IMG/VR virus record: IMGVR_UViG_3300044798_000072
Coordinates: 1-54,748 of that record
Length of the DNA: 54,748 nt
Origin: a virus
Taxonomy: Duplodnaviria; Caudoviricetes
Reading direction: 5' to 3' (one strand)
A model generated the notes under the pieces. The model ran no database searches and was not told the origin of the DNA. It saw nothing but the letters and a program-made list of their open reading frames with translations. Shown here one piece after another: positions 4,224-44,687 of this stretch. A program made the translations under genes and the position numbers. Numbering within the stretch: position 1 is the first letter of the stretch; each line of letters starts with the position of its first letter.

Positions 4224-4745
4224 CTATTTCTTTTTCATTACTGCCAGCATATCGTCAAATTGGCCTTTAACCTTGCGCCGGTCATGGAGCGTGACGTTCT
4301 GGAAACAGCCAAAGAGTTCCAGGTATTGCGGGTAACGAATATCTTCAACGATGAAAAGACCGCCTGGTTTAAGTTTGGGCCAGAACACGGCCACCGCCCA
4401 AATCTGTTCGGTGATGACATGGCTGGCGTCGTCAATGATGATGTCAAAATCAGGCAGAGCATTTCTGATTTCGAGAATGTGATCCCGTTCAACTGTATCG
4501 CAACGGATGCTGGTGATTCGGTTTTCTGTAATCAATCGGGCCGGGTCATTGTCAATTCCATAGACGTGCGCATAGGTGAAAAAATCTCGCCATGCCCGAA
4601 GCGAAGCGCCGTTCATTATCCCCAATTCAAGAATGGCTTCCGCCGACTCCTGATAAGGCAGGAACAATTCTTCATACAGCGGCACATAAGAATGCGATGA
4701 CAATTTATCAGATGGATGCTTTGTAAAGGCTTCAGTAAGATTCAT
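4224..4745 (-). CDS. Class I SAM-dependent (sugar O-)methyltransferase
   Basis: ILELGIMNGASL, YGID, DIIIDDASH, LKPGGLFIVED motifs. Confidence 0.85.
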   Translation of the reverse strand: MNLTEAFTKHPSDKLSSHSYVPLYEELFLPYQESAEAILELGIMNGASLRAWRDFFTYAHVYGIDNDPARLITENRITSIRCDTVERDHILEIRNALPDFDIIIDDASHVITEQIWAVAVFWPKLKPGGLFIVEDIRYPQYLELFGCFQNVTLHDRRKVKGQFDDMLAVMKKK

Positions 4746-5947: not shown

Positions 5948-7554
5948 CTAAATTCGGCAATCGCAGACCTGCAATCATTCTGTCCGACTGCAACCAGGAT
6001 GTTATCCCCGTCCAAGAACGCACCGTAAGGAATCACCACATTCCTCTTCCAGTGGTGACAGTCGTGGACATATCGTTCATCACCGCAAAGTAAATATCTT
6101 CCCACGACCTTGACGGTTGCGAATGGCGGCCTGTTCTCCATCAGGCAAGTCCCGATGAAATAGCGGAACGACCTGTCGGGATAAACTTTTCTGGAATGGA
6201 AAAACCGGAGCAGTTTGTCGCCGCGCAGAAGCACCGCCCCGCCCCTTATCTCGCCATTCGGCCAAGTCGGGGCGGGCGACCTGTGTTCAGCCACAACCGT
6301 TTCCCGGTCAACTTCCAGCACAATTTGTTTCCCGTCCTTGATGCCGTAAATGAAATACAACTTTCCGCCCACCACAAACGGACACCAGTTTTTTTCCATG
6401 CCCGAAAAGTCGTTGTGTCCGTATTTGGGCTGGTAATGCTTTTCAACGCGCCACTGTTCCTTTTCTTCGATAACCGGCCCGTATCCCATGACCGAGAACC
6501 ACCGACCGCTTCTTTCCGTTGAAAGTGTGTATGCCGCATAAAGCCTTTCATTGAAAACGAACAATCTTGCATCCTCTTGCCCATATTCCCTATACATTTC
6601 GGGCAGAGTTAACGACAAAGTTCGCTTCCCATCGTCAATAACCAGCTTGGTTTTCCAGTTTTGAGCGGGGTGGTAACGGTAGGATTTTATCAGCCGATTG
6701 CCAAATCGCACAGCAGACAGATTGTAACCATTGTGGAACATTGTCCCACACGGGGTAATTTCAGCCGGCTTGACCCCTCGTATGATGTCCACCATTTCAA
6801 ACAGAATCCTTTTCTTGCGCCGTTCCCATTCCCCATACCGGCAATAAAATCTGAATTTAGGATGCCACGCTGAACCACGCCAACCGTCAGCGGCCAGAAC
6901 AATCGTTGGAACTTTGGATGCCTTTGAAAGATGAACGTGCGCCGTCTCAACCGTTACCAGACAATCGGCCTTGTCATATAAACCAAGCACATCAAAAATC
7001 CGGCTGGCCTTGACTTCGGACAGCCTGATAATCTTGTGGGTTGAACCAAATTCATCCTTCAACATCTTCGCCAGTTCGTTAGCTTGTTGAAACGGTGACG
7101 ACTCGCTGTGGTCGGCAAAGAGGATGAACTTCTCACTAGGGCTTGCACCCCGCCCACACCTCACTGTGCTTCTTATCAGTATCCGCTCCCGCAAGCTGCT
7201 GCGCTGGTCAAACACCAGCGGCCAATCCTCAAAATGTTCAACGCAGCCCGCACGAAGCCACTGGCTGTATTGAAATGAAGGCGTTTTGTGTTCCACGGGA
7301 TAATCCCTGCCGTGAGTTTGCGGGACAATAACATTCTCGAATTTTCGCTTGGCCAACTTTATCGCTCCCCGAACGTCGCCCATGTCACCGTCAAAAATCA
7401 CCGGCCCGACATACGACACGCCTTGCAGAATGTCAGCGTATTGCTTGGCTATGACCAGCGAAGGTTTGATTCCTGTTGTTTGGAACTCATGCAGCAGGAT
7501 TGGGAGAACTGACGCTACATCGCCGTATTTTCCGGTTTGGACATAGGCTTTCAT
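5926..7554 (-). CDS. Fusion of GT9-like (GT-B) domain and GH130/beta-mannosyltransferase-like beta-propeller
   Basis: N-terminal GKYGD and LVTVETAHVHL (GT9-like); C-terminal EDARLF, EKNWCPF, IRGG, VVIPYGA, GQND (5-blade propeller family). Confidence 0.7.
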   Translation of the reverse strand: MKAYVQTGKYGDVASVLPILLHEFQTTGIKPSLVIAKQYADILQGVSYVGPVIFDGDMGDVRGAIKLAKRKFENVIVPQTHGRDYPVEHKTPSFQYSQWLRAGCVEHFEDWPLVFDQRSSLRERILIRSTVRCGRGASPSEKFILFADHSESSPFQQANELAKMLKDEFGSTHKIIRLSEVKASRIFDVLGLYDKADCLVTVETAHVHLSKASKVPTIVLAADGWRGSAWHPKFRFYCRYGEWERRKKRILFEMVDIIRGVKPAEITPCGTMFHNGYNLSAVRFGNRLIKSYRYHPAQNWKTKLVIDDGKRTLSLTLPEMYREYGQEDARLFVFNERLYAAYTLSTERSGRWFSVMGYGPVIEEKEQWRVEKHYQPKYGHNDFSGMEKNWCPFVVGGKLYFIYGIKDGKQIVLEVDRETVVAEHRSPAPTWPNGEIRGGAVLLRGDKLLRFFHSRKVYPDRSFRYFIGTCLMENRPPFATVKVVGRYLLCGDERYVHDCHHWKRNVVIPYGAFLDGDNILVAVGQNDCRSAIAEFRWEDLRL

Positions 7555-7581: not shown

Positions 7582-7737
7582 CTATTCAACAATAGGGGGT
7601 TTTATTATCCGCCAAAATATAATTGCGACACTGAAAAGATGAACCGCAAAGAACCCCCGAAGAAATGGAGGTTCTGTTTTATGCCAAGAAATCCCAATTA
7701 GCCAGATTTTCCAGTCGAAGATTATTTCAGGTTTCAT
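7582..7737 (-). CDS. Small hydrophobic hypothetical protein (51 aa)
   Basis: Manually translated MKPEIIFDWKIWLIGISW...PPIVE; start overlaps the groES 3' end. Confidence 0.45.
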   Translation of the reverse strand: MKPEIIFDWKIWLIGISWHKTEPPFLRGFFAVHLFSVAIIFWRIIKPPIVE

Positions 7738-8071
7738 CTAAAATTCCTTCCACGTCATGCTGTTTGATTTGCACCAATCGCTTGTCACCAATCTCGCAAA
7801 ACAGTCCTGAGAACTTTTTGAAAACAACCCGTTGTCCAATCTTGAATTCAGGTTCAACCAGCACGCCTTTCTTGGTTCTCAGTTTTCCGCCCATTGCGAA
7901 CACCGTTCCGGTGCTTGGCATGTCCCGGTCACGGTAAGTTTCGGGCTTCAAAATCAATCCCGATTTTTCAGGTTCGGGGTCGGGAAGGATAAATACATTT
8001 CCGGCAGTTGGCCGAAGCCTAAGACGGCGCTTGAGGCAACTCTGATTTGGCTCGCCAGTTTTCGGGGGCAT
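7727..8071 (-). CDS. groES: Co-chaperonin GroES/Cpn10
   Basis: LRPTAGNVFI...SGLIL...GTVFAMGG...KIGQRVVFKKFSG...DVEGIL. Confidence 0.9.
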   Translation of the reverse strand: MPPKTGEPNQSCLKRRLRLRPTAGNVFILPDPEPEKSGLILKPETYRDRDMPSTGTVFAMGGKLRTKKGVLVEPEFKIGQRVVFKKFSGLFCEIGDKRLVQIKQHDVEGILDET

Positions 8072-8487
8072 TATTTGCCCTCCTTCGACTCACGCTCAGA
8101 GTGCCTCAGCTTTGTTTTAGACCACGGAACTACATCAAACCAATATGAACGAAAAATCAAATTTGCAAACCGACCAGATGCTTCTTGGTGCAACCGCCGG
8201 ATATATGGGATTGAGGAAGTTTGTTCTTGAGTGGTATTCACAGATGACGAGTGAGCCGATGAATCAGGCAGAGCAAAGACTTCGCGGGTATATTGACGCA
8301 GAACTAGAGAGACTATTGAGGGAGTTGGCTGAAAGTGGCTCTCCTGATTATGCCAGAATTTTAGATTTCCGCAAAAAGCAATCACCTTAGATATGAAGTC
8401 CAAAATCCGTGGTCTAACAATGCGCTTCAGGACAACGCCGGGTGCGCTGGCCGGTTTAGCTGCATCACTGGTCGGTTTGGTTGTCAT
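8071..8487 (-). CDS. Antisense ORF starting inside attC loop, coupled to groES
   Basis: ATG in attC loop after AG-rich RBS-like tract; stop overlaps groES start (TAATG); composition not typical of a folded protein. Confidence 0.35.
   Translation of the reverse strand: MTTKPTSDAAKPASAPGVVLKRIVRPRILDFISKVIAFCGNLKFWHNQESHFQPTPSIVSLVLRQYTREVFALPDSSAHSSSVNTTQEQTSSIPYIRRLHQEASGRFANLIFRSYWFDVVPWSKTKLRHSERESKEGK
8145..8390 (+). CDS. Cassette-borne helical hypothetical protein
   Basis: 81-aa protein-like ORF in canonical position just upstream of attC. Confidence 0.6.
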   Translation: MNEKSNLQTDQMLLGATAGYMGLRKFVLEWYSQMTSEPMNQAEQRLRGYIDAELERLLRELAESGSPDYARILDFRKKQSP

Positions 8488-8535
8488 TCGTTTTCCTTTC
8501 TCTCACGGCGCGTGCCTGAGCTTGGGTTGTTAGGT
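8412..8535 (+). repeat. attC site
   Basis: GTCTAAC-aatgc-GCTTCAGG...CCTGAGC-ttgggtt-GTTAGGT (R'', L'', L', R' layout). Confidence 0.85.
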
Positions 8536-33524: not shown

Positions 33525-33614
33525 ATGAACGAACCAAAAACAATCGAAATGGAAATCGTCAGTCAAACCGACGACAAGCTTGTAAAATTCGCAACCAAGA
33601 CGGGACTTGAAAAG
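33525..33614 (+). pseudogene. 5' fragment of phage gene interrupted by IS1595-family element
   Basis: ORF start runs in frame into IS end at 33615; probable 3' remnant LRDMARV...QAQRI ends at 35422. Confidence 0.55.
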
Positions 33615-35312
33615 GGCAATAATATACTTGACTCACATGCGGCAAAAGGTTTAATCTTTCCGAAACCTAAACGAAAGAAAAAACCCGTGACCGTTATAAT
33701 TGGAATAATTTGCGAATTTGGAATCGTGCTGGCAAGCGATAGTCAAACCACGTTTGGAGATAACTCTAAAAGGTGTGATGCTGAAAAAATCCGCGTGGTA
33801 AAATTCAAAGAAAGCGACGACAAAGTATTGGTAGCCCAATCAGGGTCAGTTGAAACATCAAGCCGAGCAATAGACGTAATGGAACAATTGGCGGCTGACC
33901 GAAAATTGGAAAACGAAGAAACGGTTATCAGCACTGTCCAGAAAGCCATGCATAAAGTAAGAACAGAAATACGACATCAAAACTTCGATTGCAGCGCGGA
34001 AGAATTCGACAAAATCATAACCAATCACGGATTGGACTGTTCTTTGATGACGGCGAATTTTTTCGACAAGAAGCCTTTTATTCACACATTTAACTTTCAG
34101 CGCGGAACAACTGAAAACTGCAAAACATTTTACGAATCCACCGGATGCGGCTCTGCGCTGTCCAATTATATTTTAAGCGAATTATGTTCACCAAAAATGG
34201 ATTCTCGGTTGGGACAAGCCATTGCAGTTTATGTCGTAGATAAAGCGATCAAACACGTTGCCTACTGCGATAGGCCAATACGATTGGCGACCATTTATCC
34301 GTGGGAGTCGTCATTCTTTCCTTCACCATCAAATTTGCTTGGCTCTCTACTTGATGAATCTAAATCAACAGCGCCGCGCATATTTTCATCTGCTCCGCCC
34401 TTATTTATGGACAATGTTAAGATAGAAGACGCCGAAGAAGTCGAAAAAATCATAAATAAAGTGACTAAAATTGATGAGGAAACAAAGCCGCAGAGAATTA
34501 AAAAGCTACGCGAAGCATTGATTTCTTACGCTGACACAATGAATGACTATTCCCAAGCAGCCTTAACAAAGAAACAAGCACCAAATGAATAACGAATTTC
34601 CACAAACCCTAGTCGCCGCAATTCGGCATTTCTCTGACCCGCAAGTGGCGTTTGACTTCATGGTGAAACTGCGCTGGCCGGACAAGGTGAAATGCCCGCG
34701 CTGCCAGTGTGAGGACGTGAGTTTCATTGCCACGCGCAAAATCTGGAAATGCAAGCATTGCACAGAGAAAGGCCAGTTCTCCGTTCGCGTCGGCACGATT
34801 ATTGAAGATAGCGCATTGTCATTGGACAAATGGCTTGCCGCGATCTGGATGATTGCCAATGACAAAAACGGCGTTAGCTCCTACGAAGTTCATCGCTCAA
34901 TCGGCGTCACGCAAAAAACCGCTTGGTTCATGCTGCAAAGAATCCGGCTCGCTATGCAAACCGGCACGTTTGAAAAGATGAAGGGGGAAATCGAAGCCGA
35001 CGAAACTTATATCGGCGGCAAAGTTCGCAATATGCACGTTGAACAGAAACGCAAACGCGGTCGCGGGACTGGCGGCGTAGGTAAGGCGATTGTTATGGGA
35101 TTATTGGCGCGGCACAGTAAAGCGGGCACAAGTAAGGTGAAGGTCAAACACGTTCCAAACTCCCGGCGCGGCACGGTTCAAGGCGAAATCCGCGAACACG
35201 TCGAGGCTGGTTCACAGGTGTTCACGGATGCCCTGCCATCTTACAATGGGTTGAATCCTGATTACGTTCACGAAGCAATCAATCACGCCGAATGTTATGT
35301 GCGCGGGAATGT
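33615..35312 (+). mobile_element. IS1595-family element with passenger gene, right end deleted
   Basis: Left end GGCAATAATATACTTGACTCA resembles the TIRs at 48720/49963; transposase truncated; no right TIR found. Confidence 0.8.
33687..34592 (+). CDS. Proteasome beta-subunit-like Ntn hydrolase (Thr protease), IS passenger
   Basis: GTG start gives (M)TVIIGI...GIVLASDSQTT...KI...SG...STGCGS; also in frame with upstream ATG 33525. Confidence 0.8.
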   Translation: MTVIIGIICEFGIVLASDSQTTFGDNSKRCDAEKIRVVKFKESDDKVLVAQSGSVETSSRAIDVMEQLAADRKLENEETVISTVQKAMHKVRTEIRHQNFDCSAEEFDKIITNHGLDCSLMTANFFDKKPFIHTFNFQRGTTENCKTFYESTGCGSALSNYILSELCSPKMDSRLGQAIAVYVVDKAIKHVAYCDRPIRLATIYPWESSFFPSPSNLLGSLLDESKSTAPRIFSSAPPLFMDNVKIEDAEEVEKIINKVTKIDEETKPQRIKKLREALISYADTMNDYSQAALTKKQAPNE

Positions 35313-35379
35313 TGCGCGACATGGCCCGCGTGAAGTTGATGGACGAATCACTGTCAGACTCCATCTGGACAAAAGTTAA
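34585..35379 (+). pseudogene. IS1595-family transposase, C-terminally truncated
   Basis: Zn ribbon CPRC/CKHC, KTAWFMLQRIR, EADETYIGG, VFTD, then breaks after HAECYVRGNV before the HTNxIE catalytic Glu. Confidence 0.9.
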
Positions 35380-36371: not shown

Positions 36372-37019
36372 ATGAACCGAATTTTCTACGACCTCGAAAC
36401 CGAGGGATTGCCAGAAGCCGACCTTGCCAAGCTCATGCCGGAATTCGCGGCGGGCGCAAACCTGAAAGACCCGGCCAAGATTGTCGCCGCCATCGCTGAC
36501 AAGAAACAGGACTGGCTGGACGGCGCGGCATTGAAAGCCATCACCGGCAAGATTGTGGCAGTGACGATTGCTTGGGACGACACTGAGCCGACAATGTTTG
36601 CCAACGACCCCGACGGCGAAATTGGTTTAATCAAGATTGTTTTGCGTGAACTGAAACGGATGATTTCGGTTGGAGGCATGGCTTACGCTTGGAACGGCCA
36701 CGGCTTTGACCTACCATTTCTTTGTCAGCGGGCGGCGGTTCACAACATCCAAGCCTTTCGTGACCTGACCGTGAATGTCCGGGGCAGGTTCTATTGGCAC
36801 GAATCGCTAATTGACCCAAAACTTGTCTGGTCAAATTACTCACCCGACCATACCGGAACCAGTCTGAAATCTGTTGCGCTTGCATTGGGTGTTGGTGAAA
36901 AAATTGGAAGCGGCAAGGACTTCGCCAAACTGCTCAAGGAAAATCCAGCCGAGGCTACACGCTACGCGCTGGCCGACATTACTTTGATGCGTGGCATAAT
37001 AAACCGAATGGGAATATGA
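36372..37019 (+). CDS. DEDD 3'-5' exonuclease (PolB-exo-like)
   Basis: YDLET, WNGHGFDLPFL, YALAD. Confidence 0.85.
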   Translation: MNRIFYDLETEGLPEADLAKLMPEFAAGANLKDPAKIVAAIADKKQDWLDGAALKAITGKIVAVTIAWDDTEPTMFANDPDGEIGLIKIVLRELKRMISVGGMAYAWNGHGFDLPFLCQRAAVHNIQAFRDLTVNVRGRFYWHESLIDPKLVWSNYSPDHTGTSLKSVALALGVGEKIGSGKDFAKLLKENPAEATRYALADITLMRGIINRMGI

Positions 37020-37112
37020 CCAACAACCGCAACCCGAAGCCGGATTCGACCTGACGCCATAAGCAAACCAAAAACGAATATGAAGAAACATCTTGTCACT
37101 GCAAAACGCGCT

Positions 37113-37180
37113 GTGAAACGACAAGCCGCTGCCGGAACTGGAGTGCGTAGCTCCAGTTCTGTGCAGCGCCCTTGTTAGGC
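37113..37180 (-). repeat. attC-like site 1 (degenerate)
   Basis: AAC...cgctgc-cggaactggag/ctccagttctg-t-gcagcg-ccctt-GTTAGGC. Confidence 0.55.
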
Positions 37181-37201
37181 CACTCGCAACGAAATAAAAA
37201 T

Positions 37202-37459
37202 ATGAACATAACATTCGATAAACTGACGCTCGAAATAAACCGAGAGGAGGCATACGCGCTCTACTCGACAATCAAACATGGTCTTGAGGACAGAATCAAA
37301 GACCACTGGCACAACCATCCAGACTCATACGAGAAACTGGAATCTCAACGACTGCACATGATGCGTGAACTTGCCAGATTCACGGGCAACGACTTTAACT
37401 ATGACTCCGCCGAGCTAAAAAGGCTGCTGACGGAATACCAGAAACCTAAAGTGGCCTAA
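37202..37459 (+). CDS. Cassette 1 hypothetical protein
   Basis: Stop TAA inside GCCTAAC. Confidence 0.7.
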   Translation: MNITFDKLTLEINREEAYALYSTIKHGLEDRIKDHWHNHPDSYEKLESQRLHMMRELARFTGNDFNYDSAELKRLLTEYQKPKVA

Positions 37460-37577
37460 CGCCGCGCTATGCCGCGACTCTGGAAACGAGCGTGGAGCGC
37501 AAAAACCGGAATAAAATTATGAGCAAAACAACGAACGTAAGACGCCAAGAGTCGTTGGCATCAGCAAGAGGTTCTAC
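37454..37577 (-). repeat. attC-like site 2
   Basis: GCCTAAC..gctatgccgcgactct / agagtcgttggcatcagc..GTTCTAC. Confidence 0.8.
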
Positions 37578-37761
37578 AGCTTCGTGCGACCTGCGAAGCC
37601 CACTAGCAAAAGCGCGTGACGCATTTCTGGCGAGCGAGGAAGGCGAGAAGCTGACGAATCCAGGCATACTAAGAAGCCGTGACCTGCGCCAATATCTCGA
37701 AAATCGAATCGAACTCGCCTACCTCGCGGGCGTAGCCGATGCCAAAAAGCTAAAGCTGTAG
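37519..37761 (+). CDS. Cassette 2 hypothetical protein
   Basis: ATG in attC2 loop; stop TAG in GTAGAAC. Confidence 0.7.
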   Translation: MSKTTNVRRQESLASARGSTASCDLRSPLAKARDAFLASEEGEKLTNPGILRSRDLRQYLENRIELAYLAGVADAKKLKL

Positions 37762-37889
37762 AACGACCGACTTGCGCCGCAGCCACGGATAACGGCTGAC
37801 GGCTCCGAAAAGGAAAAAATATGAGAGAAGAAAAAGACCAATCGAAAACTGAAAGCGTAGTGGCTGTTGGCTCGAAGGAGTTGTTAGCG
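37758..37889 (-). repeat. attC-like site 3
   Basis: GTAGAAC..gccgcagccac / gtggctgttggc..GTTAGCG. Confidence 0.75.
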
Positions 37890-38042
37890 ATGGAACAATT
37901 ATACGCGAAGCTCAAACACCGAGAGCACGAACAAAGAGTAAAAGCCGTCGAAGCCGTGAACCGTGCCGAAACATACCAAGACGCTTCAATAGAAGTGGAC
38001 TTCACGATGGACAAAATCAAGAAAATGCTCACAAGCAGCTAA
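37821..38042 (+). CDS. Cassette 3 coiled-coil hypothetical protein
   Basis: ATG in attC3 loop; stop in GCTAAC. Confidence 0.7.
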   Translation: MREEKDQSKTESVVAVGSKELLAMEQLYAKLKHREHEQRVKAVEAVNRAETYQDASIEVDFTMDKIKKMLTSS

Positions 38043-38126
38043 CGCAGAGTTCAGGAACGCCGCACGCAAGGCGTCCGACTCTGAAGGCAGCGTCCAATAG
38101 GCGTTTCCTGCAACGATTTGTTGGGC
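38037..38126 (-). repeat. attC-like site 4
   Basis: AGCTAAC-gcaga-gttcaggaacgcc / ggcgtttcctgcaac-gattt-GTTGGGC. Confidence 0.85.
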
Positions 38127-38148
38127 AGCAAAATTGAGATATACAAAA

Positions 38149-38856
38149 ATGAAAAAGACACTTGGCGAACTTATCGAACCCGGATTTAGCCACTATCGAA
38201 GCATCGGCGAACTGGCGCGCACGCTCCAATTCCTGATGTCCACGGCGCACACATTCCGCGACCCAGGCCGCTGGGGAACTTCCGGCCCGCAAGAATATCT
38301 GTGCGCCTACGGCGGATGCGTGAACTGCGACACCCAGCCGTGGCACAGTGGCCGGATCGTCTCAACAAATCCCCATGTGGTCGAGACAACCACATGGCAG
38401 CAAAACCAAGACAGCATCCGCGACTGCATCCTCGACGCGCTCTGCTCACGCTATCCGGCGGAACTGCGCTGGCGGAAGCGGCACAAAATCAGTCTCGACA
38501 CGCTGCTGAAATTCCCGATGGCTTATCAGAATCAGGACAACGAAAAAAAGGTGTGGGAGCAACCGATGGGGCTTGGACTCGGCGGGACATTCGTGCCATG
38601 CGTCGAACCGATACTATTCTGCCGACGCGGAAACCTGCCCGCAAAACGCCGAATGGATCGCAACTGGTGGGGGTGGCCGCGTGGACGGCACAGCCAAAAA
38701 CCAGAAGCGTTTCAGACGATGGTGGAGTCAGTAAGTCCCGGCCCATACTTGGAAATGTTTGCTCGACGCAAGCGGGAAGGCTGGGCGGCGTGGGGCAATG
38801 AAATAACCAGTGACCTAAAAATGCAGAACATTGGCGCTGAGGCGCGCGACCTATGA
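38149..38856 (+). CDS. Chimeric protein with C-terminal half of an MT-A70 adenine methyltransferase
   Basis: GLG...EPILFCRRG, HSQKPE, YLEMFAR, GWAAWGNE present; catalytic DPPW absent. Confidence 0.7.
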   Translation: MKKTLGELIEPGFSHYRSIGELARTLQFLMSTAHTFRDPGRWGTSGPQEYLCAYGGCVNCDTQPWHSGRIVSTNPHVVETTTWQQNQDSIRDCILDALCSRYPAELRWRKRHKISLDTLLKFPMAYQNQDNEKKVWEQPMGLGLGGTFVPCVEPILFCRRGNLPAKRRMDRNWWGWPRGRHSQKPEAFQTMVESVSPGPYLEMFARRKREGWAAWGNEITSDLKMQNIGAEARDL

Positions 38857-38926
38857 CAACCGCAAACGAAAATGCTCCCGGCAAACCTGAAGGCGTAATC
38901 ACGTCGCCTCCAGCAACTTGTTCGGT
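38823..38926 (-). repeat. attC-like site 5
   Basis: GCAGAAC..gctgaggcg / cgcctccagc-aactt-GTTCGGT. Confidence 0.8.
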
Positions 38927-39101
38927 GGCTTGGTGGATCGTATTGAGGCCACCAGAAAAGTGGGCGCGCGGCGAATTCAGCCACAGTCCGATGCCAATAG
39001 CCGCATTCATAAGTGAACGGATGGCGAAGGAATGGATAGCGTCCGCAGCGCACAGATACCGTGATATAATTCAGCCACCGAATGAGAAAGTTCAGATATG
39101 A
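38853..39101 (+). CDS. Cassette 5 hypothetical protein
   Basis: ATG in attC5, ATGA overlaps at both ends. Confidence 0.65.
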   Translation: MTTANENAPGKPEGVITSPPATCSVAWWIVLRPPEKWARGEFSHSPMPIAAFISERMAKEWIASAAHRYRDIIQPPNEKVQI

Positions 39102-39207
39102 GCGACCAAAATCACAAGCACTTTTATATTTACGGGCGATGCCAATGCGGGCAAGTCCAACCGAACTACAACGCGCAGAGCGAATTATCTGCAACGCCTT
39201 GTTCGGC
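39077..39207 (-). repeat. attC-like site 6
   Basis: ACCGAAT..gttcagata / tatctgcaac-gcctt-GTTCGGC. Confidence 0.7.
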
Positions 39208-39343
39208 GTGGGTGACGGCGATCTGGCGTGAATCGTTTCGTTGTGAACACACCTCGCTATTGGTGTTTTGTAGCTGGTTAACAGCAATGGGAAAGCTGCA
39301 AGCATCGGGCTGGCCTGTGCATTTTGAGGGCCGTGAACAATGA
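39098..39343 (+). CDS. Cassette 6 hypothetical protein
   Basis: ATG in attC6. Confidence 0.5.
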   Translation: MSDQNHKHFYIYGRCQCGQVQPNYNAQSELSATPCSAWVTAIWRESFRCEHTSLLVFCSWLTAMGKLQASGWPVHFEGREQ

Positions 39344-39344
39344 C

Positions 39345-39476
39345 GCCGAACGCCAAGCTCACTGACCGGAGCGCCAAATGACAATTTCGCCACACGCACC
39401 CCGCAACCAGGCACCGCGACCGGCGCTGTCTGAACTGGAAGCGCAAGCTCCGGTTCAGTGCAGCGCCGGGTTAGCC
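39345..39476 (-). repeat. attC-like site 7
   Basis: GCCGAAC-gccaa-gctcactgaccggagc / gctccggttcagtgcagc-gccgg-GTTAGCC. Confidence 0.9.
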
Positions 39477-39704
39477 TGCATTTCGACGGCGATGGTGGCG
39501 AAACATAAAGGCTGCCCGGAGCTAAAACCGTGTAAGCACTGCGGCTACTCGCCGGTGAGGATTGACACGACATTTGCGAACGGCTCGAAAGCCTTCGCCT
39601 TCGGATGCCCGAATGAGGAATGCAACCCGCGAGGCCGGCATTCGGTCTTGATGCCATCGAAGCGGGAAGCAGCAGCCGCATGGAATTACGCCAATGCAGG
39701 CTAA
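39378..39704 (+). CDS. Lar-like restriction alleviation Zn-finger protein
   Basis: LKPCKHCG...CPNEEC...AAAAWN. Confidence 0.7.
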   Translation: MTISPHAPRNQAPRPALSELEAQAPVQCSAGLACISTAMVAKHKGCPELKPCKHCGYSPVRIDTTFANGSKAFAFGCPNEECNPRGRHSVLMPSKREAAAAWNYANAG

Positions 39705-39826
39705 CGATCAAGCTCACGCGCAGCCACTTGTGAGCGAGACAGGAAAATGAAACCAACAACCAAATTACTGCGACGCACGACAAAACCGAGGGGCGAGTGG
39801 CTGTTGCGTGCAGCGCGGTGTTAGAC
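39699..39826 (-). repeat. attC-like site 8
   Basis: GGCTAAC..gctcacgcgcagccac / gtggctgttgcgtgcagc-gcggt-GTTAGAC. Confidence 0.9.
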
Positions 39827-39831
39827 GACCT

Positions 39832-40104
39832 ATGACGAGAGAAATCATAATACAACCAGTGCTCAACGGCTACGTGTGTGTCGTTGGATGTCAGCGCGTC
39901 GCGTTCACTGACAAGCAAACGATGCTGGGGCAACTCAGCGAATACCTCGACAAGCCCGATGAAGTGGAACAACGCTACATCGAACGTGCCGTGAACAAAA
40001 TGCCAGCGGTGCCGCAACCGTGCAGGCCAACCGACTGCTGTGAGTCAAGCGCGCCCACGCCGTCCGTAACGATGGGACGTGTGGAAGAACGCCGGCCACG
40101 ATAA
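39832..40104 (+). CDS. Cassette 8 hypothetical protein
   Basis: MTREIIIQPVLNGYVCVVGCQ... Confidence 0.7.
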   Translation: MTREIIIQPVLNGYVCVVGCQRVAFTDKQTMLGQLSEYLDKPDEVEQRYIERAVNKMPAVPQPCRPTDCCESSAPTPSVTMGRVEERRPR

Positions 40105-40138
40105 CACAAATGACGACCAGGCTCGCAAGGGTCTGGTC

Positions 40139-40430
40139 GTCTAACGACGGAGCTATGCCGCGCCGTCAAACTAAATAAAAATATGGAAAATCCAAAACTT
40201 CTAGCCTGCCCGTTCTGTGGCAGCGAAGTGACGCTCAAAGATACCGGCAATGACGCCGGATACCGATGGCTCGTGCGCTGCGATAATGCGCTCTGCATGG
40301 TCAACCCATTCGCACGGGCAAAAAGCCTAGATGCGACAATGGCAATCTGGAACCAAAGGGCAGGCGGTCGAAAACCAGCGCCGCCCGAAACCGAGACCGT
40401 AAAGGCGTTGGCATCAGCGACTGGTTCTAC
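40139..40430 (-). repeat. attC-like site 9 with ~240-nt coding loop
   Basis: GTCTAAC..gctatgccgcgcc / ggcgttggcatcagc-gactg-GTTCTAC. Confidence 0.75.
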
Positions 40431-40656
40431 CGCTGGCTACGACTGGACTGTGATGTGCGATAAATTGCCACCGCACTGCGTCAGGGTGATGACCTATTCA
40501 CCACAACCAATCGGTGCGCGGCAGAATCTTACGGACGGAGTAGCCATCCTATGCTGGAACGCTCACGAACAACGATGGTGCGATGACAACGGGGAGACAT
40601 CCATGTTCAAACCGACAGCCTGGTGGCCAATAACCATCCCAACTAAAAAGCGGTAG
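40183..40656 (+). CDS. Lar-like Zn finger fused to DUF551-like domain
   Basis: ACPFCG...CDNALC...IWNQR then WTVMCDKLP...PTAWWPI. Confidence 0.75.
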   Translation: MENPKLLACPFCGSEVTLKDTGNDAGYRWLVRCDNALCMVNPFARAKSLDATMAIWNQRAGGRKPAPPETETVKALASATGSTAGYDWTVMCDKLPPHCVRVMTYSPQPIGARQNLTDGVAILCWNAHEQRWCDDNGETSMFKPTAWWPITIPTKKR

Positions 40657-40746
40657 AACACCCAAGCTGAGCGATGACGCCACTACCAACATCCGATTGC
40701 AAACAAGAGCGCCAAGGCGTCATTCGCTCCAGCGCCCTTGTTAGGC
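40653..40746 (-). repeat. attC-like site 10
   Basis: GTAGAAC..gctgagcgatgacgc / gcgtcattcgctccagc..GTTAGGC. Confidence 0.9.
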
Positions 40747-41513
40747 ATCTTGTCCTATTTTCAGGAGGTCTTGTCTCTTGGGCGACAGCAAAGCGCGTGG
40801 TAGCAGCCCACGGCACGGATGGCGTAGTGCTGCTGTTCGCTGACACGATGATGGAAGATGAAGACCTGTATCGCTTCATAGTCCAAGCCGCCGAAAATGT
40901 CGGCGTGCCGCTGACTCGAATCGCGGACGGTCGCAACCCGTGGGAAGTCATGCGCGATGAACGAATCATCGGCGGCGGAATGACTGGCGCTGATCCATGC
41001 AGCAAAATACTGAAACGCCAACTGCTCGACCGATGGACGCGGGAAAACTGCCAGCCGGAAACGGTTTCTCATGTGGGACTCGACTGGACAGAGCATCACC
41101 GGCTAGACCGGATGCGCGTGAGGATGCCGGAACGCAAATGGTCTGCGCCGATGACAGAAGCTCCCTACATGACGAAGCCGCAAATGATGGCGTGGCTGAA
41201 ATCGGAAGGCATCGAACCTCCGAGACTCTACAAAATGGGATTCCCGCACAACAACTGCGGCGGCTTCTGCATCAAAGCCGGTCAAGCTCACTTCGAGCTA
41301 CTGCTGCGGATGATGCCAGACCGCTACGCTTACCACGAACAGAAGGAAGAAGAAATGAGACAGATGCTCGGAAAAGACTATGCCGTGCTGCGCGAACAGC
41401 GCGACGGAAACAAATTCCCGCTCACGCTGCGGAAGCTGCGCGAGCGGATTCAGTCACAAGGCTCATTCGACCAATTCGAGTGGGGCGGCTGTGGCTGCGC
41501 GATAGATGCCTAA
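40674..41513 (+). CDS. PAPS-reductase-like (PP-loop, Cys-cluster) phage protein
   Basis: FSGGLVS, FADTMMEDEDLYRF, CSKILK, HNNCGGFCIKAG, GGCGC. Confidence 0.8.
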   Translation: MTPLPTSDCKQERQGVIRSSALVRHLVLFSGGLVSWATAKRVVAAHGTDGVVLLFADTMMEDEDLYRFIVQAAENVGVPLTRIADGRNPWEVMRDERIIGGGMTGADPCSKILKRQLLDRWTRENCQPETVSHVGLDWTEHHRLDRMRVRMPERKWSAPMTEAPYMTKPQMMAWLKSEGIEPPRLYKMGFPHNNCGGFCIKAGQAHFELLLRMMPDRYAYHEQKEEEMRQMLGKDYAVLREQRDGNKFPLTLRKLRERIQSQGSFDQFEWGGCGCAIDA

Positions 41514-41606
41514 CGTATGAGCCAAGCCACAGCCAACCAGAAACCGTCAACCGCGATAGCGGATGCTGGACGCCCGATGGCTGTTGGCTTCGGCGATTTG
41601 TTCGGC
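41508..41606 (-). repeat. attC-like site 11
   Basis: GCCTAAC..gccaagccacagcca / tggctgttggcttcggc-gattt-GTTCGGC. Confidence 0.85.
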
Positions 41607-41861
41607 ATCGTGCTGTCGGTCCGCGAGTCTGCAATAGTGAAACTTCTCTCGGAGGGCATGACCGTAAAAGAGATCGCCCTCAATCTCAAAATCTCGAATA
41701 AGACCGTCGAGTTCCACTCCCTGCGAGCGCGCCGGAAAATCGGTAATCTATCCATTGCTGTGATGACTCGGTTCGCAATCATAAATGGACTGAGTGAACT
41801 TACGATGCCGAACAGAGAGATAACCAACACAAAATCCGACTCTAAATCCACAAATGCCTAG
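41517..41861 (+). CDS. LuxR-type HTH protein
   Basis: LSVRESAIVKLLSEGMTVKEIALNLKISNKTVEFH. Confidence 0.85.
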   Translation: MSQATANQKPSTAIADAGRPMAVGFGDLFGIVLSVRESAIVKLLSEGMTVKEIALNLKISNKTVEFHSLRARRKIGNLSIAVMTRFAIINGLSELTMPNREITNTKSDSKSTNA

Positions 41862-42138
41862 ACGTTATACAGATAGGGATAGGCAACTTGCAACGCACGC
41901 AAGGGCTAGAATACGAATATCCGCGCCTGATTTCAGCAGCGCGTCTCGTCGGAAAGTTCGTATGCCACGCGGCAGGATCAGGTTCACGCTTACGCTGGAA
42001 GATCACCAGATTGGGGACAAGATGAGATTGGGCCTGTTCGCGCTTCCGTGGCGGGGAAGATTTGTATCAACCGACGGCCAGCAGTTGAGCGCGGTCAAGA
42101 TTATATCAGCGGTCAACACCGTTCTTTGCCATGATTGA
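41854..42138 (+). CDS. Hypothetical protein
   Basis: 94 aa, overlapping starts/stops. Confidence 0.55.
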   Translation: MPRRYTDRDRQLATHARARIRISAPDFSSASRRKVRMPRGRIRFTLTLEDHQIGDKMRLGLFALPWRGRFVSTDGQQLSAVKIISAVNTVLCHD

Positions 42139-42388
42139 GTCCAAGCTAAAATCAGCCGCGCTGGAGTTCAGTCGAAAGTCCGGCATTCGTCCTGCCGTGC
42201 TGGTTCAAGAGGCGATGCAGATTGGGGCGAGCATTGCCCTGGAACACGCCGTCACGAAGGTTAAGAACGAAACCAAGCTGCGCCAGCGGTTGAACCGAAT
42301 TGGACTGCAAGACGGCGGGGAGAAAAGCGGGAGTTTGGTGATTGAGGAATTGGAAAATAAATCGTTGACAAATGGGGCGGTAGGATAG
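42131..42388 (+). CDS. Hypothetical protein
   Basis: 85 aa. Confidence 0.6.
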   Translation: MIESKLKSAALEFSRKSGIRPAVLVQEAMQIGASIALEHAVTKVKNETKLRQRLNRIGLQDGGEKSGSLVIEELENKSLTNGAVG

Positions 42389-42739
42389 AACTTAAAGCAT
42401 CGCATATTTTATGCGGTCAGAGCTTTTGAGATGGCCCTGTGAACGCAGTTGAAAATGAACCTAACGAAATTTCAAGTCCGTTGCTGTTGGCGACCTTGCC
42501 AAAAAGCTGAAAGGCTCTGCGACATCTCAACGCCAACGGCAGCGGTCTTGAGCTTTTGATTTTATGGATAAATCTCTTTTTGGGTTTCGGATTTACACAA
42601 GCGATTCTGGAAATGTTGTGATAACACAGGATACAGGCCGTGAGGAAAACGTTGTTATTTTGAAGCCAGAGCAAATACCATTGCTTGTTTCATGGCTCAA
42701 AGAAGCGGCGTCTGAAATTTACACCCCGGAGGAAAGGCA

Positions 42740-43426
42740 ATGACCTTTCAAATCAAAGACTGGAACTCTCACTTTGAGAATGACCGCAGCCGACAGCGGG
42801 CTAATTGTTCCTTCGTATGCGTCCCAAACAAGCAGCACGGGATGGGATTCTGCCGCATCATGGCTGAACAGGACGGCGCGGCAATTTATGGAATATGGCA
42901 TTGTATTGTCGGAGCCTGTTCCCAACAGAAGCATCGTGACGGTTGGCTAACCGCAGACGGTGACATGGCGGGGAGTCCGTGGGGAGTTGGCGACCTTGCG
43001 TTGAAATTCAGAAGGCCTGAAAAAGAGGTTGAAAGAGCGTTACAAGTGCTTTGTTCTGAAAAGGTTGGGTGGATTATTATACACGGTAACAGCCAAGTAA
43101 CCGCCGACTCACCGCCGACTCACCTAGAAGAGAAGGAAGGGAAAGAAGGAAGAGAAGAGAAAGAAGGCGCTAGCTCCCTCTCTGAAATACCTTCTTGGAA
43201 TGAATTTTGGGAATACTGCAAGTCTCCTCAATGCGGGATAGCGGCGGAATGGTTTGCGAAGGACAAATATCTTTCCGTGGATGATTGGTCTAAAAAGAGG
43301 GACTGGCGGAAGTTCGCGCTCCGAGTTCGCGGCTGGTGGGACAACGATGGCAGGCCGATGACGCCACCAAAAAAGAACGGTTCCGACACGGGGCCACAAA
43401 AATCATACCTTCAAAGGCCGGGATAA
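42740..43426 (+). CDS. Phage replication initiator
   Basis: IKDWNSHFEN N-terminus, EEKEGKEG linker, directly upstream of dnaB. Confidence 0.7.
   Translation: MTFQIKDWNSHFENDRSRQRANCSFVCVPNKQHGMGFCRIMAEQDGAAIYGIWHCIVGACSQQKHRDGWLTADGDMAGSPWGVGDLALKFRRPEKEVERALQVLCSEKVGWIIIHGNSQVTADSPPTHLEEKEGKEGREEKEGASSLSEIPSWNEFWEYCKSPQCGIAAEWFAKDKYLSVDDWSKKRDWRKFALRVRGWWDNDGRPMTPPKKNGSDTGPQKSYLQRPG
43100..43168 (+). other. Candidate replication origin inside initiator gene
   Basis: accgccgactc x2 tandem followed by purine-skewed tract, as in lambda O-type genes. Confidence 0.4.
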
Positions 43427-43427
43427 A

Positions 43428-44687
43428 ATGGAAACGAAACTACCGCCGCACAGCGCAGATGCAGAGCAGTTCGTCATAGGCTGCTGTCTGACGACGCCGG
43501 TTGAATCCGTTCCTGAATCCATTGGCCGAATTAACAGCGGCCACTTTTACGACCAGCGGAACAGAATCGTTTGGGAAGCGATGGCAACAATGCGGCCTGA
43601 CGAAGTGGACGCCATCACAGTGCGGCAGTATTTGAAGGGCTTTAAAAGTTCTGAAAAGATTGGCGGCGACCAATACCTTGCGCTGTGTCAGGACAAGGTT
43701 ACATCTTCCGCGATGCTCCCAGCCATGCTGGACATCCTCGTTGAGCAAAAGATTCGGCGGGACATCATTGCCACGGCGACAGAGGCGGAAATGGCGGCTT
43801 ACAGTCCCGGCAACGCGCTTGAAATTCTGGACACCATCGAAAGCAAAATCCTAAAAATCAGACCCGCACAGACCGAAGTCGTCGGCATCAAAGAACTGGT
43901 TCACGCCGCTATTGGCCGGATTGAATCCAAATTCCTGAACGGTGACAAAATAACCGGACTGGAAACCGGACTGGTTGACCTTGACCGGCTGACGGATGGA
44001 TTACACCCCTCTGAAATGCTGGTAATCGCCGCGCTGCCAAGCCGGGGCAAGACAGCCCTTGCCGTTAATATCGCAGTCCGGTCTGCGTTGGCCGGCGTCC
44101 CGGCGCTGATTCTTTCCGCAGAAATGCGCCCCGTGCAACTTGTCGTTCGGTCAATCTGTTCTGAATCCCGCGTCAATTTTCACCACGTCAAAGAGTCAGA
44201 CATGCCAGCCATGATGTCCGCTTGCACAAGGCTGTCCAATGCTCCGCTTTACATCGAGCGAGCCAGCGGGTTCACCATAGGACAAGTCAAGGCCATTGCC
44301 CGACGCCATCACCAAAAAAACGGCATCAAACTGATTGTGATTGATTACCAGCAGCGGCTTGTCGGCGAGGGGGACAATCAGGAACAGAAAATCGCGTCCA
44401 TTTCCAAGGGCGTGAAAGATATTGCGATGGAGTTGGACGTGCCGGTGATTCTGCTTTCACAGGTGAACAAGGACGGCGAGACGAAACACGCCCGCGCCAC
44501 AGCCGAGGACTGCGATTCATTATTTAAATTAGAAAATGAGGGGGAACTTAACCCGACGATTCAAACCGTAAAACTGATTGTTGAAAAATCACGCGACGGT
44601 CAAACCGGATACGTCATGCTGGAATTTTTCAAAGAATTTACCCGATTCGAGAATCGTTCGCCGGTTGATGAAAAGGACATTCCATGA
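43428..44687 (+). CDS. dnaB: Replicative DNA helicase
   Basis: PPHSADAE, AALPSRGKT, SAEM, IVIDY, LSQVN, KSRDG. Confidence 0.95.
   Translation: METKLPPHSADAEQFVIGCCLTTPVESVPESIGRINSGHFYDQRNRIVWEAMATMRPDEVDAITVRQYLKGFKSSEKIGGDQYLALCQDKVTSSAMLPAMLDILVEQKIRRDIIATATEAEMAAYSPGNALEILDTIESKILKIRPAQTEVVGIKELVHAAIGRIESKFLNGDKITGLETGLVDLDRLTDGLHPSEMLVIAALPSRGKTALAVNIAVRSALAGVPALILSAEMRPVQLVVRSICSESRVNFHHVKESDMPAMMSACTRLSNAPLYIERASGFTIGQVKAIARRHHQKNGIKLIVIDYQQRLVGEGDNQEQKIASISKGVKDIAMELDVPVILLSQVNKDGETKHARATAEDCDSLFKLENEGELNPTIQTVKLIVEKSRDGQTGYVMLEFFKEFTRFENRSPVDEKDIP

What the first reader, a model, noticed from the sequence alone, without database searches (positions are those of the whole stretch)
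40139..40659. A whole Lar-like domain encoded inside an attC loop
Seen: the arms of site 9 (nearly the same as site 2) are 292 bp apart end to end, versus 68-132 bp for the others. The loop holds the ATG and a complete CPFCG..C..C..WNQR domain, fused through the arm to a DUF551-like domain in the cassette body. Established: known attC sites are mostly under ~150 bp. Inference: the variable loop acts as a second cargo slot that generates domain fusions. A separate GCAA-capped hairpin (40112-40141) overlaps the left box.
Basis: partly seen in the sequence, partly recalled or inferred. Interest (0 to 1): 0.75.

Follow-up and report, generated by a model that had tools for sequence, protein, structure and literature searches.

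The report
Protein domain inside phage attC hairpin
A phage gene starts inside an integron-type recombination hairpin whose loop has grown to encode a whole anti-restriction zinc-ribbon domain, a conserved arrangement that could let recombination sites double as protein-building modules.

Summary
Site 9 (40139-40430, 292 nt) has the same two complementary arms as site 2 (37454-37577). Its loop holds the ATG (40183) and a complete Lar zinc ribbon (Pfam E 4e-8). The ORF reads through the 3' arm into a further domain.

The arms belong to a large family of structured sites in uncultured-virus contigs. The family shows strong covariation, with 121 compensatory cells against 49 in shuffles (0 of 500). 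It has attC architecture: AAC...GTT ends, unpaired spacers, an L helix with two extra bases on one arm, and a variable loop. A model built from 39 family members finds ten more sites in the window (37113-41606), all on the + strand and 68-132 nt long.

Integron-integrase genes lie just downstream of such arrays in 8 of 47 related records. The window has none, so it is a "CALIN".

Lar-in-loop sites recur in at least 11 other loci, 278-298 nt long. Their Lar domains are only 33-47% identical to this one, yet their arms are conserved, covary across the loop and are read in two frames.

This is a new long-loop, coding variant of attC. Recombination activity, the crossover point and the "cargo slot" mechanism remain untested. 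DUF551 likeness rests on leads only.

The parts
40139..40430 (+). Site 9: attC-type site with a very long variable terminal structure (292 nt; AAC 40143-40145 to GTT 40424-40426)
   Evidence: Regex and complementarity check. Same arms as the short site in L014. Arm classes covary in 10 Lar-type sites.
40139..40145 (+). 5' R box GTCTAAC (fits RYYYAAC)
40152..40164 (+). 5' arm: L box GCTATGCC plus inner stem GCGCC
   Evidence: the pairs were verified letter by letter.
40183..40656 (+). ORF of 157 aa: Lar zinc ribbon, then an arm-encoded linker, then a C-terminal body
40195..40362 (+). Lar_restr_allev domain (residues 5-60), lying wholly inside the loop
   Evidence: Pfam PF14354, E 4.1e-8.
40404..40418 (+). 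3' arm: GGCG-TT-GGCAT-C-AGC with extra T and C bases; encodes ALAS of the linker
40424..40430 (+). 3' R box GTTCTAC (GTT is conserved; the box does not fit GTTRRRY)
40427..40653 (+). Cassette body. The domain also occurs on its own in other proteins; possibly DUF551-like
   Evidence: Stand-alone relatives P0007, P0010, P0013, P0014, P0016 and P0018. Atlas lead. Pfam negative.
40112..40141 (+). GCAA-capped 13-bp hairpin abutting the 5' R box; role unknown
   Evidence: RNA fold z-score -7.1.
37454..37577 (+). Site 2: short twin of site 9, with the ATG (37519) in its loop
   Evidence: CM 54.9 bits (it was a seed sequence).
37113..37180 (+). Site 1 (weak match)
   Evidence: CM 16.9 bits, E 0.018.
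37758..37889 (+). Site 3
   Evidence: CM 23.9 bits, E 1.6e-4.
38037..38126 (+). Site 4
   Evidence: CM 32.6 bits, E 4.6e-7.
38823..38926 (+). Site 5
   Evidence: CM 27.4 bits, E 1.5e-5.
39077..39207 (+). Site 6 (weak match)
   Evidence: CM 18.8 bits, E 0.0049.
39345..39476 (+). Site 7. The next ORF (39378-39704) carries a second Lar-like domain, this time after the site
   Evidence: CM 31.1 bits. Pfam E 0.025 and PHROG 599 E 1.6e-5.
39699..39826 (+). Site 8
   Evidence: CM 38.9 bits, E 6.6e-9.
40653..40746 (+). Site 10. The ATG (40674) of the PAPS-reductase-like gene lies inside it
   Evidence: CM 45.2 bits, E 1e-10.
41508..41606 (+). Site 11. The ATG (41517) of the LuxR-type gene lies inside it
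   Evidence: CM 51.1 bits, E 1.9e-12.

Best explanation
Site 9 is a member of a phage-borne, integron-type family of attC recombination sites. In this family the coding strand is the strand that folds.

The window carries an integrase-less array (a CALIN) of 11 such sites between 37.1 and 41.6 kb. There is one small early or accessory gene per interval. The stop codon of the upstream gene usually sits in the 5' R box (YTAAC). The start codon of the next gene usually sits inside the site.

Site 9 belongs to a conserved long-loop subfamily. Its variable terminal structure (about 240 nt) encodes a whole Lar-type zinc ribbon, and its 3' arm encodes the linker (V)KALASATGS. Every protein started there is therefore a Lar-X fusion.

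Shown: the anatomy, covariation, array organisation, integrase linkage in relatives, recurrence of Lar-in-loop sites, and exchange of bodies behind the arm.

Inferred: that the site is (or recently was) recombined as a folded single strand by an IntI supplied in cis in ancestors or in trans. Also inferred: that exchanges at the arms, whether site-specific or homologous, create new Lar-X combinations used against host restriction.
For: (1) Family and structure. The right-box pattern is in 16 other IMG/VR contigs. A two-box pattern gave 93 matches, of which 51 pass a complementarity and GTT filter. In 44 elements the cognate inner helix averages 6.7 bp, against 2.7 bp for non-cognate arm pairs. 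The helix is at least 5 bp in 77% of cognate pairs against 9% of non-cognate pairs, and there are 27 different inner sequences. On 39 aligned sites, 89.9% of cells pair against 75.0% in shuffles. There are 121 both-side changes against 49, and the covariation score is 0.361 against 0.114 (0 of 500 shuffles each). Slid controls pair in 25-55% of cells.

(2) attC architecture. The sites have AAC and GTT ends and 5-6-nt unpaired spacers. Two extra bases (C in 39 of 39 sites, T in 36 of 39) lie on the 3' arm. Nivina 2016 describes this for the recombinogenic bottom strand. Seventeen G-T wobbles at one pair fit folding of this strand only.

(3) Array in the window. The model finds ten further sites in the window, all on the + strand and within 4.5 kb, eight of them at E<0.001. 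Nothing else on the + strand scores below E 0.5.

(4) Integrase linkage. TIGR02249-like genes are present in 2 of 18 and 6 of 29 records that hold the element, and 4 of these score over the curated cut-off. In 7 of those 8 records the nearest site is 0.24-2.3 kb upstream of intI on the same strand. All 45 of 45 model hits in 16 loci are co-oriented within their locus.

(5) Lar-in-loop recurs. Ten of 15 metagenome loci have both arms around a Lar ribbon, with spans of 278-298 nt and Lar 33-47% identical. There is one more in IMG/VR (L249), and its array ends at an integrase scoring 265.3 bits. Arm classes GCGCCG/GGCG (4 sites) and GCGTGC/CACG (6 sites) are concordant in 10 of 10. The right arm is translated in two frames, LASAxG and VGISD. 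In the L008/L012 group the ATG conserved inside the element is out of frame with the LASADGS reading (a 1-nt indel relative to L006), so the arm is conserved at the nucleotide, not the protein, level.

(6) Mobility. L095 has one extra unit (attC plus 836 nt) relative to L033, bounded by 100% identical sites. Twenty-four of 155 relatives have Lar plus the arm peptide followed by mostly different bodies. P0002 has a Lar and linker 100% identical to this one but a different body. The same bodies also occur behind different Lars: P0002 with P0023, and P0006 with P0031.
Against: No integrase gene or remnant is in this 97%-complete record.

Unconstrained single-strand DNA folds of 40139-40430 do not pair the arms. 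Forcing the arms to pair costs 7.7 kcal/mol (-42.6 against -50.3). For site 2 the cost is 2.0 kcal/mol.

The extended R-box consensus is mostly missing. RYYYAAC fits 5 of 39 sites and GTTRRRY fits 6 of 39, while GTTC occurs in 23 of 39. The fourth R pair is unpaired in 16 of 39.

The extra base next to the spacer is C, not the G of studied attC sites.

The ORFs lie on the strand that reads as the bottom strand, which is the reverse of canonical cassettes.

The geometry predicts the crossover at the 5' AA|C. The Lar/body junctions, however, sit at the 3' GTT, so some exchanges may be plain homologous recombination.

Part of the complementarity (two pairs, plus AAC and GTT) was imposed by my search patterns. 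I also removed six doubtful rows by eye before the counts.

The model did not recover site 9 full-length (9.6 bits, partial), although it did recover the 286-nt L230 site.

There is no experiment.
Confidence: 0.8

Rival explanations
1. The sites are now only homologous-recombination boundary repeats, working like the PeSL cassettes of T4-type phages. In this integrase-less phage, short conserved arms promote RecA- or phage-recombinase-mediated shuffling, and the hairpin is a relic.
For: There is no IntI in the window. Module junctions are seen at both ends of the element, including the 3' GTT, where canonical IntI cleavage is not expected. In 40 of 59 pairs of near-identical elements both flanks differ. 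Arm pairing is not the minimum-energy fold for site 9.
Against: Compensatory changes keep the helix across 27 different inner sequences and across 240-nt loops. Homologous recombination does not require that. The extra bases, the spacers and the integrase adjacency in relatives are features of attC sites.
Confidence: 0.12
2. The structure is an mRNA leader hairpin. It would serve translational coupling or repression, or RNA processing, and not DNA recombination. The folded strand is the sense strand, start codons sit in the loop or stem, and the upstream stop codon sits at the foot.
For: There are G-U pairs on the sense strand (17 of 39 sites at one pair). An ATG lies inside the site in sites 2, 3, 7, 9, 10 and 11, and the stop codon lies in the 5' box.
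Against: No Rfam family matches. This reading does not explain the integron integrases next to the arrays. It does not explain the AAC/GTT ends, or the cassette indel bounded by identical sites. It may still be a second, added role.
Confidence: 0.05
3. Site 9 is a hybrid of two half-sites. A deletion fused the left arm of one attC to the right arm of the next, trapping a former Lar cassette between them.
For: Stand-alone Lar genes exist behind a left arm only, with a stop and a lost right L box (L241 and L242). A Lar-like domain also occurs as an ordinary cassette body in the window (39378-39704).
Against: The same two arms form a normal 119-nt site in L014, and identity stops exactly at TAAC and GGTTC. 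Left and right arm classes are concordant in 10 of 10 Lar-type sites. The arrangement persists while Lar diverged to 33-47% identity. No remnant arms lie inside the loop.
Confidence: 0.03

Closest known systems
Integron attC sites, and clusters of attC sites lacking an integrase (CALINs), in phages (Qi et al. 2023, PMC9892861; abstract and section 3.4 read)
   Same: Imperfect hairpin with AAC/GTT ends, unpaired spacers, extra bases on one arm and a variable loop. One-strand arrays with one gene per interval. Integron integrase next to the arrays in some relatives. Methyltransferase cassettes are present.
   Different: Site 9 is 284-292 nt, against the quoted range of 57-141 bp. Its loop encodes a folded protein domain. 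ORFs start inside the sites and lie on the bottom-like strand. The extended R consensus is mostly absent. The L box is strongly conserved in sequence.
Long-loop attC sites of sedentary chromosomal integrons, such as Vibrio VCRs (Nivina 2016, PMC5027507; passages read)
   Same: A homogeneous repeat family with long, branched variable terminal structures.
   Different: Natural class 1 VTS are quoted as 3-100 nt (Nivina 2020, passage). VCR loops are non-coding (recalled). Here the loop is about 240 nt and coding.
Synthetic attC sites embedded in coding sequences and peptide linkers (Nivina et al. 2020, PMC7439510; abstract and passages read)
   Same: A recombination hairpin that at the same time encodes a peptide linker between two protein domains.
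   Different: Those sites were engineered, with a VTS of 3-21 nt, and were tested with IntI1. These sites are natural and untested, and a whole domain sits in the loop.
PeSL mobile regulatory cassettes of T4-type phages (PMC2839356 and PMC4122927; search listing and start of abstracts only)
   Same: Conserved intergenic stem-loop modules flank small variable phage genes and are linked to gene shuffling.
   Different: As recalled, PeSLs are promoter-terminator motifs acting through homologous recombination. They have no tyrosine-recombinase linkage, no AAC/GTT boxes and no extra bases.
Shufflons and Gin/Cin invertible tail-fibre segments (recalled, no call)
   Same: Recombination sites inside a coding sequence that swap C-terminal protein segments behind a constant N-terminal part.
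   Different: Those are double-stranded inverted sites that work by inversion. Here the sites are direct repeats of folded single-strand sites in a cassette array.

Membership tests
Integron attC site | Conserved 5'-AAC and GTT-3' triplets at the two ends, able to pair | tested here: met
   Site 9 has AAC at 40143-40145 and GTT at 40424-40426. In the 39 seed sites the three pairs hold in 39, 36 and 36 sites. This was partly imposed by the search pattern. It is independently present in the model hits within the window.
Integron attC site | Extended R boxes RYYYAAC and GTTRRRY that are complementary over 7 nt | tested here: not met
   Site 9 has GTCTAAC, which fits, and GTTCTAC, which does not. 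In the family, 5 of 39 and 6 of 39 sites fit. The fourth pair is unpaired in 16 of 39.
Integron attC site | Unpaired central spacer of about 5-6 nt on each arm | tested here: met
   The left spacer is G plus 4-5 nt and the right spacer is 5 (rarely 6) nt, in alignment A3. The comparison is to Nivina 2016.
Integron attC site | L-box helix with 2-3 extrahelical bases on the L'' arm, with a 6-bp stem between the first and last | tested here: inconclusive
   Extra C (39 of 39) and extra T (36 of 39) lie on the 3' arm. The spacing is 5 or 6 bp, depending on which T of the TT is taken as extruded. The first extra base is C rather than G.
Integron attC site | Total length about 57-141 bp with a short to moderate variable terminal structure | tested here: not met
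   Site 9 is 284-292 nt and the Lar-type relatives are 278-298 nt. The ten other window sites are 68-132 nt.
Integron attC site | Occurs in co-oriented arrays bounding single-gene cassettes | tested here: met
   There are 11 sites on the + strand between 37113 and 41606. All 45 of 45 hits are co-oriented within their locus in relatives. There is a cassette indel between L033 and L095.
Integron attC site | Integron integrase (IntI, TIGR02249) adjacent to the array | tested here: not met
   None is in the window. It is present in 8 of 47 related records, 4 of them over the cut-off, and in L249 (265.3 bits). It always lies downstream on the same strand. The window is therefore a CALIN.
Integron attC site | Cassette ORF on the top strand, upstream of its own attC | tested here: not met
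   The ORFs with Pfam or PHROG support (Lar, PAPS reductase, MT-A70, DUF551 in L024) lie on the strand that carries the extra bases in its 3' arm. They run toward intI.
Integron attC site | Recombined by IntI as a folded bottom strand | not testable with these tools
   This needs an attC x attI or attC x attC assay.
Lar_restr_allev (PF14354) | HMM score over the gathering threshold | tested here: met
   33.8 bits against 28.6, residues 5-60.
DUF551 (PF04448) | HMM match of the C-terminal body | tested here: not met
   No hit at E<=1 and no BLASTP alignment to the DUF551 protein of L024. There are Atlas feature and structure leads only.

The most novel reading that the evidence does not exclude
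Phage integrons use dual-coded attC sites. The recombinogenic strand is the coding strand, and each site supplies the translation start and the N-terminus of the next protein. In one conserved subfamily the loop carries a whole anti-restriction zinc ribbon. Recombination at the arms would then assemble combinatorial Lar-X anti-defence proteins. This would be a natural counterpart of the engineered coding attC sites, and a domain-shuffling role for integron machinery.
Probability: 0.35. Interest if true: 0.85.

Novelty: new variant of a known kind. Interest (0 to 1): 0.72.

Why it matters
attC sites are thought of as short, non-coding hairpins behind genes. Here a conserved class about twice the known maximum length carries a folded protein domain in its loop and a linker peptide in its arm. 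The recombination site sits in the middle of a gene.

If these sites are active, integron-type recombination in phages would shuffle protein domains, not just whole genes, in a region full of anti-restriction functions.

As I recall, IntegronFinder caps attC length at about 200 bp by default, so standard searches would miss such sites. The extent of phage integrons may therefore be underestimated.

The family also offers natural templates for the coding attC sites that so far have only been engineered.

Tried and rejected
- **Rfam.** There were no matches at gathering thresholds in the window or in 16 loci. An E-value scan of site 2 gave only a chance-level S-element hit (E 1.8).
- **GenBank phages.** blastn of 36500-43500 found no match.
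- **Unconstrained folds.** Folds of site 9, site 2 and other sites gave z-scores from -2.2 to +0.2, and mostly the arms did not pair. Thermodynamics alone would therefore have rejected the finding. The comparative data overturned that.
- **Simple motif statistic.** There are 71 RYYYAAC and 67 GTTRRRY in the window, against roughly 53 expected from my own arithmetic. This is uninformative.
- **Protein-level explanation of the right arm.** Rejected because the arm is read in two frames, and because in the L008/L012 group the element's conserved ATG is out of frame with the LASADGS reading.
- **Genome-contig scan for a bacterial host.** Only 4 of 120 rows passed my filter (MAGs labelled Elusimicrobia, Chthoniobacter and Pseudomonadota, plus L194, which I later judged doubtful). 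No host call was made.
- **Long-loop scan of IMG/VR (gap 235-265).** One of 38 matches was real. Gaps of 66-234 nt were not scanned, so the full length distribution is unknown.
- **Loci not followed up.** L003 and L004 (Lar relatives) and L021 and L022 (left-box hits) were not examined beyond regex.
- **Earlier findings.** The search of earlier findings returned nothing.
- **attI.** A look for attI between the last site and intI in L024 and L020 showed only a shared GAACAAC. No conclusion was drawn.
- **Rows dropped by eye.** L036, L049, L061, L082, L094 and L194 were dropped for poor inner stems. Six near-duplicates and site 9 were left out of alignment A3.
- **Supplements.** The supplementary tables of Qi 2023, which list the phage CALINs, could not be seen. 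They might already include relatives of this family.

Full report
**What the window is.** The window is a whole IMG/VR virus record of 54,748 bp, estimated 97% complete. The region from 33 to 46 kb on the + strand is an early or accessory module. It holds an exonuclease, an MT-A70-like methyltransferase, two Lar-like proteins, a PAPS-reductase-like protein, a LuxR-type regulator and a DnaB helicase.

**Checking the observation.** Site 2 and site 9 share two blocks in the same order and codon phase. The left block is CTAACG-n-GCTATGCCGCG and the right block is CGTTGGCATCAGC-n4-GGTTCTAC (blastn E 3.4e-4 for the right block). The blocks are complementary: GCTATGCC plus GCGCC pairs with GGCG-T-T-GGCAT-C-AGC, leaving an extra T and an extra C on the 3' arm.

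Site 9 spans 292 nt (40139-40430), against 116-124 nt for site 2. Its loop holds the ATG (40183) and a complete Lar zinc ribbon (PF14354, residues 5-60, E 4.1e-8). The ORF continues through the 3' arm, which encodes KALASATGS, into a 70-aa body.

The GCAA hairpin at 40112-40141 is real (z-score -7.1).

The 'DUF551-like' label for the body is not borne out by Pfam or by BLASTP. It rests only on ESM Atlas leads. The body does belong to a family of small proteins that also occur without Lar, such as P0007, P0010, P0013, P0014, P0016 and P0018.

**The arms belong to a large family.** On its own, folding would have dismissed the idea. Unconstrained single-strand DNA folds do not pair the arms. Forcing the arms to pair costs 7.7 kcal/mol for site 9 and 2.0 kcal/mol for site 2 (one search is void because of an indexing slip). 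The comparative data say otherwise.

- The right-box pattern occurs in 16 other IMG/VR contigs, nearly always with the left box 50-90 nt upstream.
- A two-box pattern gave 93 matches, of which 51 pass a filter that requires a complementary variable position and a following GTT.
- In 44 elements the cognate inner helix averages 6.7 bp, against 2.7 bp for non-cognate arm pairs. There are 27 different inner sequences. Six doubtful rows were removed by eye beforehand.
- On an alignment of 39 sites, 89.9% of cells pair against 75.0% in shuffles. There are 121 compensatory cells against 49, and the covariation score is 0.361 against 0.114 (0 of 500 shuffles in each case). Slid controls pair in 25-55% of cells.
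- Two of the 19 pairs, and the AAC and GTT ends, were imposed by my patterns. The seven inner pairs were not.
- In the L008/L012 group a 1-nt indel puts the conserved ATG out of frame with the arm. Elsewhere the arm is read in a second frame, VGISD instead of LASAxG. The conservation is therefore at the nucleotide level, not the protein level.

**Architecture.** The layout is that of an attC site as described in the passages of Nivina et al. 2016 that I read. It has AAC and GTT at the ends and unpaired spacers of 5-6 nt. Its L helix has extra bases on one arm, here C in 39 of 39 sites and T in 36 of 39. It also has a variable terminal structure.

The extra bases lie on the 3' arm of the gene-sense strand, which is the geometry of the recombinogenic bottom strand. 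Seventeen G-T wobbles at one pair fit folding of that strand only.

There are departures from the canonical site. The extended RYYYAAC and GTTRRRY consensus is met in only 5 and 6 of 39 sites, and GTTC is the commonest 3' end (23 of 39). The first extra base is C rather than G.

**An array in the window.** A covariance model built from the 39 sites finds ten further sites in the window. They are all on the + strand, lie between 37113 and 41606, and are 68-132 nt long. Each site lies at a gene boundary. The upstream stop codon is usually inside the 5' box (GCC TAA CG). The next start codon is often inside the site, as in sites 2, 3, 7, 9, 10 and 11.

The model recovers site 9 only in part (9.6 bits). 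It does recover the 286-nt relative in L230 full-length.

**Link to integron integrases.** L020 carries a 330-aa integron integrase (TIGR02249, 347 bits against a cut-off of 265). It lies 208 nt downstream of the last of seven sites.

Among records holding the element, TIGR02249-like genes occur in 2 of 18 and in 6 of 29, and 4 of these score over the curated cut-off. L005 could not be searched. In 7 of these 8 records the nearest site lies 0.24-2.3 kb upstream of intI on the same strand. All 45 of 45 model hits in 16 loci are co-oriented within their locus.

This is the canonical position of an array relative to intI if the displayed strand is the bottom strand, which agrees with the extra-base geometry. 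The genes, however, lie on that same strand and run toward intI, the reverse of classical cassettes.

The window has no integrase or remnant of one. It is therefore a cluster of attC sites lacking an integrase. Such clusters have been reported in phages (Qi et al. 2023; abstract and section 3.4 read).

**Lar in the loop is a conserved subfamily, not an accident.** A search of JGI metagenomes with an alignment of Lar relatives returned 15 loci. In 10 of them both arms flank a Lar ribbon, with spans of 278-298 nt and Lar only 33-47% identical to the window's. A long-gap scan of IMG/VR added one more, L249 (1 real match of 38). The array in L249 ends at an integrase scoring 265.3 bits.

The ten long sites fall into two arm classes, GCGCCG with GGCG (4 sites) and GCGTGC with CACG (6 sites). 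Left and right classes are concordant in all ten, across loops of about 240 nt. The arms are 89-93% identical while the loops are 68% identical.

L014 carries the same two arms as a normal 119-nt site without Lar. Identity to site 9 begins at TAACG and ends at GGTTC. This rules out, for practical purposes, a hybrid of two unrelated half-sites.

L231 holds a 261-nt site whose loop encodes a different, non-Lar 65-aa segment with no Pfam family. That site stands beside a Lar-type site and a disrupted intI. So at least two kinds of loop cargo exist.

L241 and L242 show a decayed form, with a left arm, a stand-alone Lar, a stop codon and no right L box.

**Evidence of exchange.**
- L095 differs from L033 by one extra unit (a site plus 836 nt) bounded by 100% identical sites.
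- Among 155 relatives, 24 have Lar followed by the arm-encoded peptide and then mostly unrelated bodies.
- P0002 has a Lar and linker 100% identical to the window's but a different body.
- The same bodies occur behind different Lars: P0002 with P0023, and P0006 with P0031.
- The body of P0021 resembles the separate window gene 38853-39101. I judged this by eye.

These junctions fall at the 3' GTT. Two pairs, L068 with L077 and L032 with L046, instead keep the site with its downstream body and differ upstream. The crossover predicted from the geometry is at the 5' AA|C. The data therefore do not say whether the exchanges behind the arm are site-specific or homologous.

**Conclusion.** Three points remain untested or weak. 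The first is that the site recombines. The second is that the loop is a general cargo slot: only two cargo types were seen, and most variation lies behind the arm. The third is that the body is a DUF551 domain.

**Search of the literature.** Three full-text searches found no report of a natural attC with a protein domain in its loop. Engineered coding attC sites exist (Nivina et al. 2020; abstract and passages read). Supplementary tables of the phage-integron paper could not be consulted.

Noticed in passing
window 8017-8122 (-) and 8412-8535 (-): Two weak attC-type matches on the minus strand (16.5 and 19.8 bits; E 0.023 and 0.0024) flank ORF 8071-8487 (-), next to a GroES-like gene (7727-8071, Cpn10 E 9e-11) in the structural region. 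By eye the arms pair, but the R boxes of the first are decayed. They may be a relic cassette outside the main array.
   Followed up: partly
window 34585-35379 (+): An IS1595 (ISXO2-like) DDE transposase with its zinc ribbon (Pfam E 7e-24 and 6e-13) lies inside the phage early region, 1.7 kb upstream of the array.
   Followed up: no
window 39378-39704 (+): A second Lar-like protein (PHROG 599 E 1.6e-5; Pfam E 0.025, below threshold). Its zinc ribbon lies after site 7 as an ordinary cassette body, not in the loop.
   Followed up: partly
L231:3804-4784 (+), with inner ORF 4111-4686: An integron-integrase gene next to a Lar-type site keeps only its first ~100 residues (TIGR02249 positions 3-102, E 2.7e-23) and its last motif. 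The middle is replaced by a 191-aa ORF in another frame with no Pfam family. This may be an inserted mobile gene.
   Followed up: partly
L033 vs L095 (sites at 5664 and 6593 on the reverse strand of L095): A clean cassette presence/absence difference between two viral contigs, bounded by 100% identical 93-nt sites.
   Followed up: partly
P0009 (1784 aa): A predicted 'protein' with 14 separate matches to residues ~47-85 of the query (Lar end plus linker). It is probably a stop-free read-through of a long cassette array. I did not inspect it.
   Followed up: no
L009/L015 (reverse strand of L009 ~6167-6799): A right arm without a left box within 110 nt. It is preceded in frame by a RuvC-like N-terminus (IAVDPGASGG, recognised by eye). 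This may be another loop cargo or a broken site.
   Followed up: no
window 33525-34592 (+): A proteasome/HslV-like peptidase gene in the phage (Pfam Proteasome E 1e-7; PHROG 1040).
   Followed up: no
window 37190-37205, 37507-37521, 40171-40185: Start codons are preceded by A-rich AAATAAAAATATG-type leaders without a clear Shine-Dalgarno sequence (family D18). This may be a hint about the host's mode of translation initiation.
   Followed up: no
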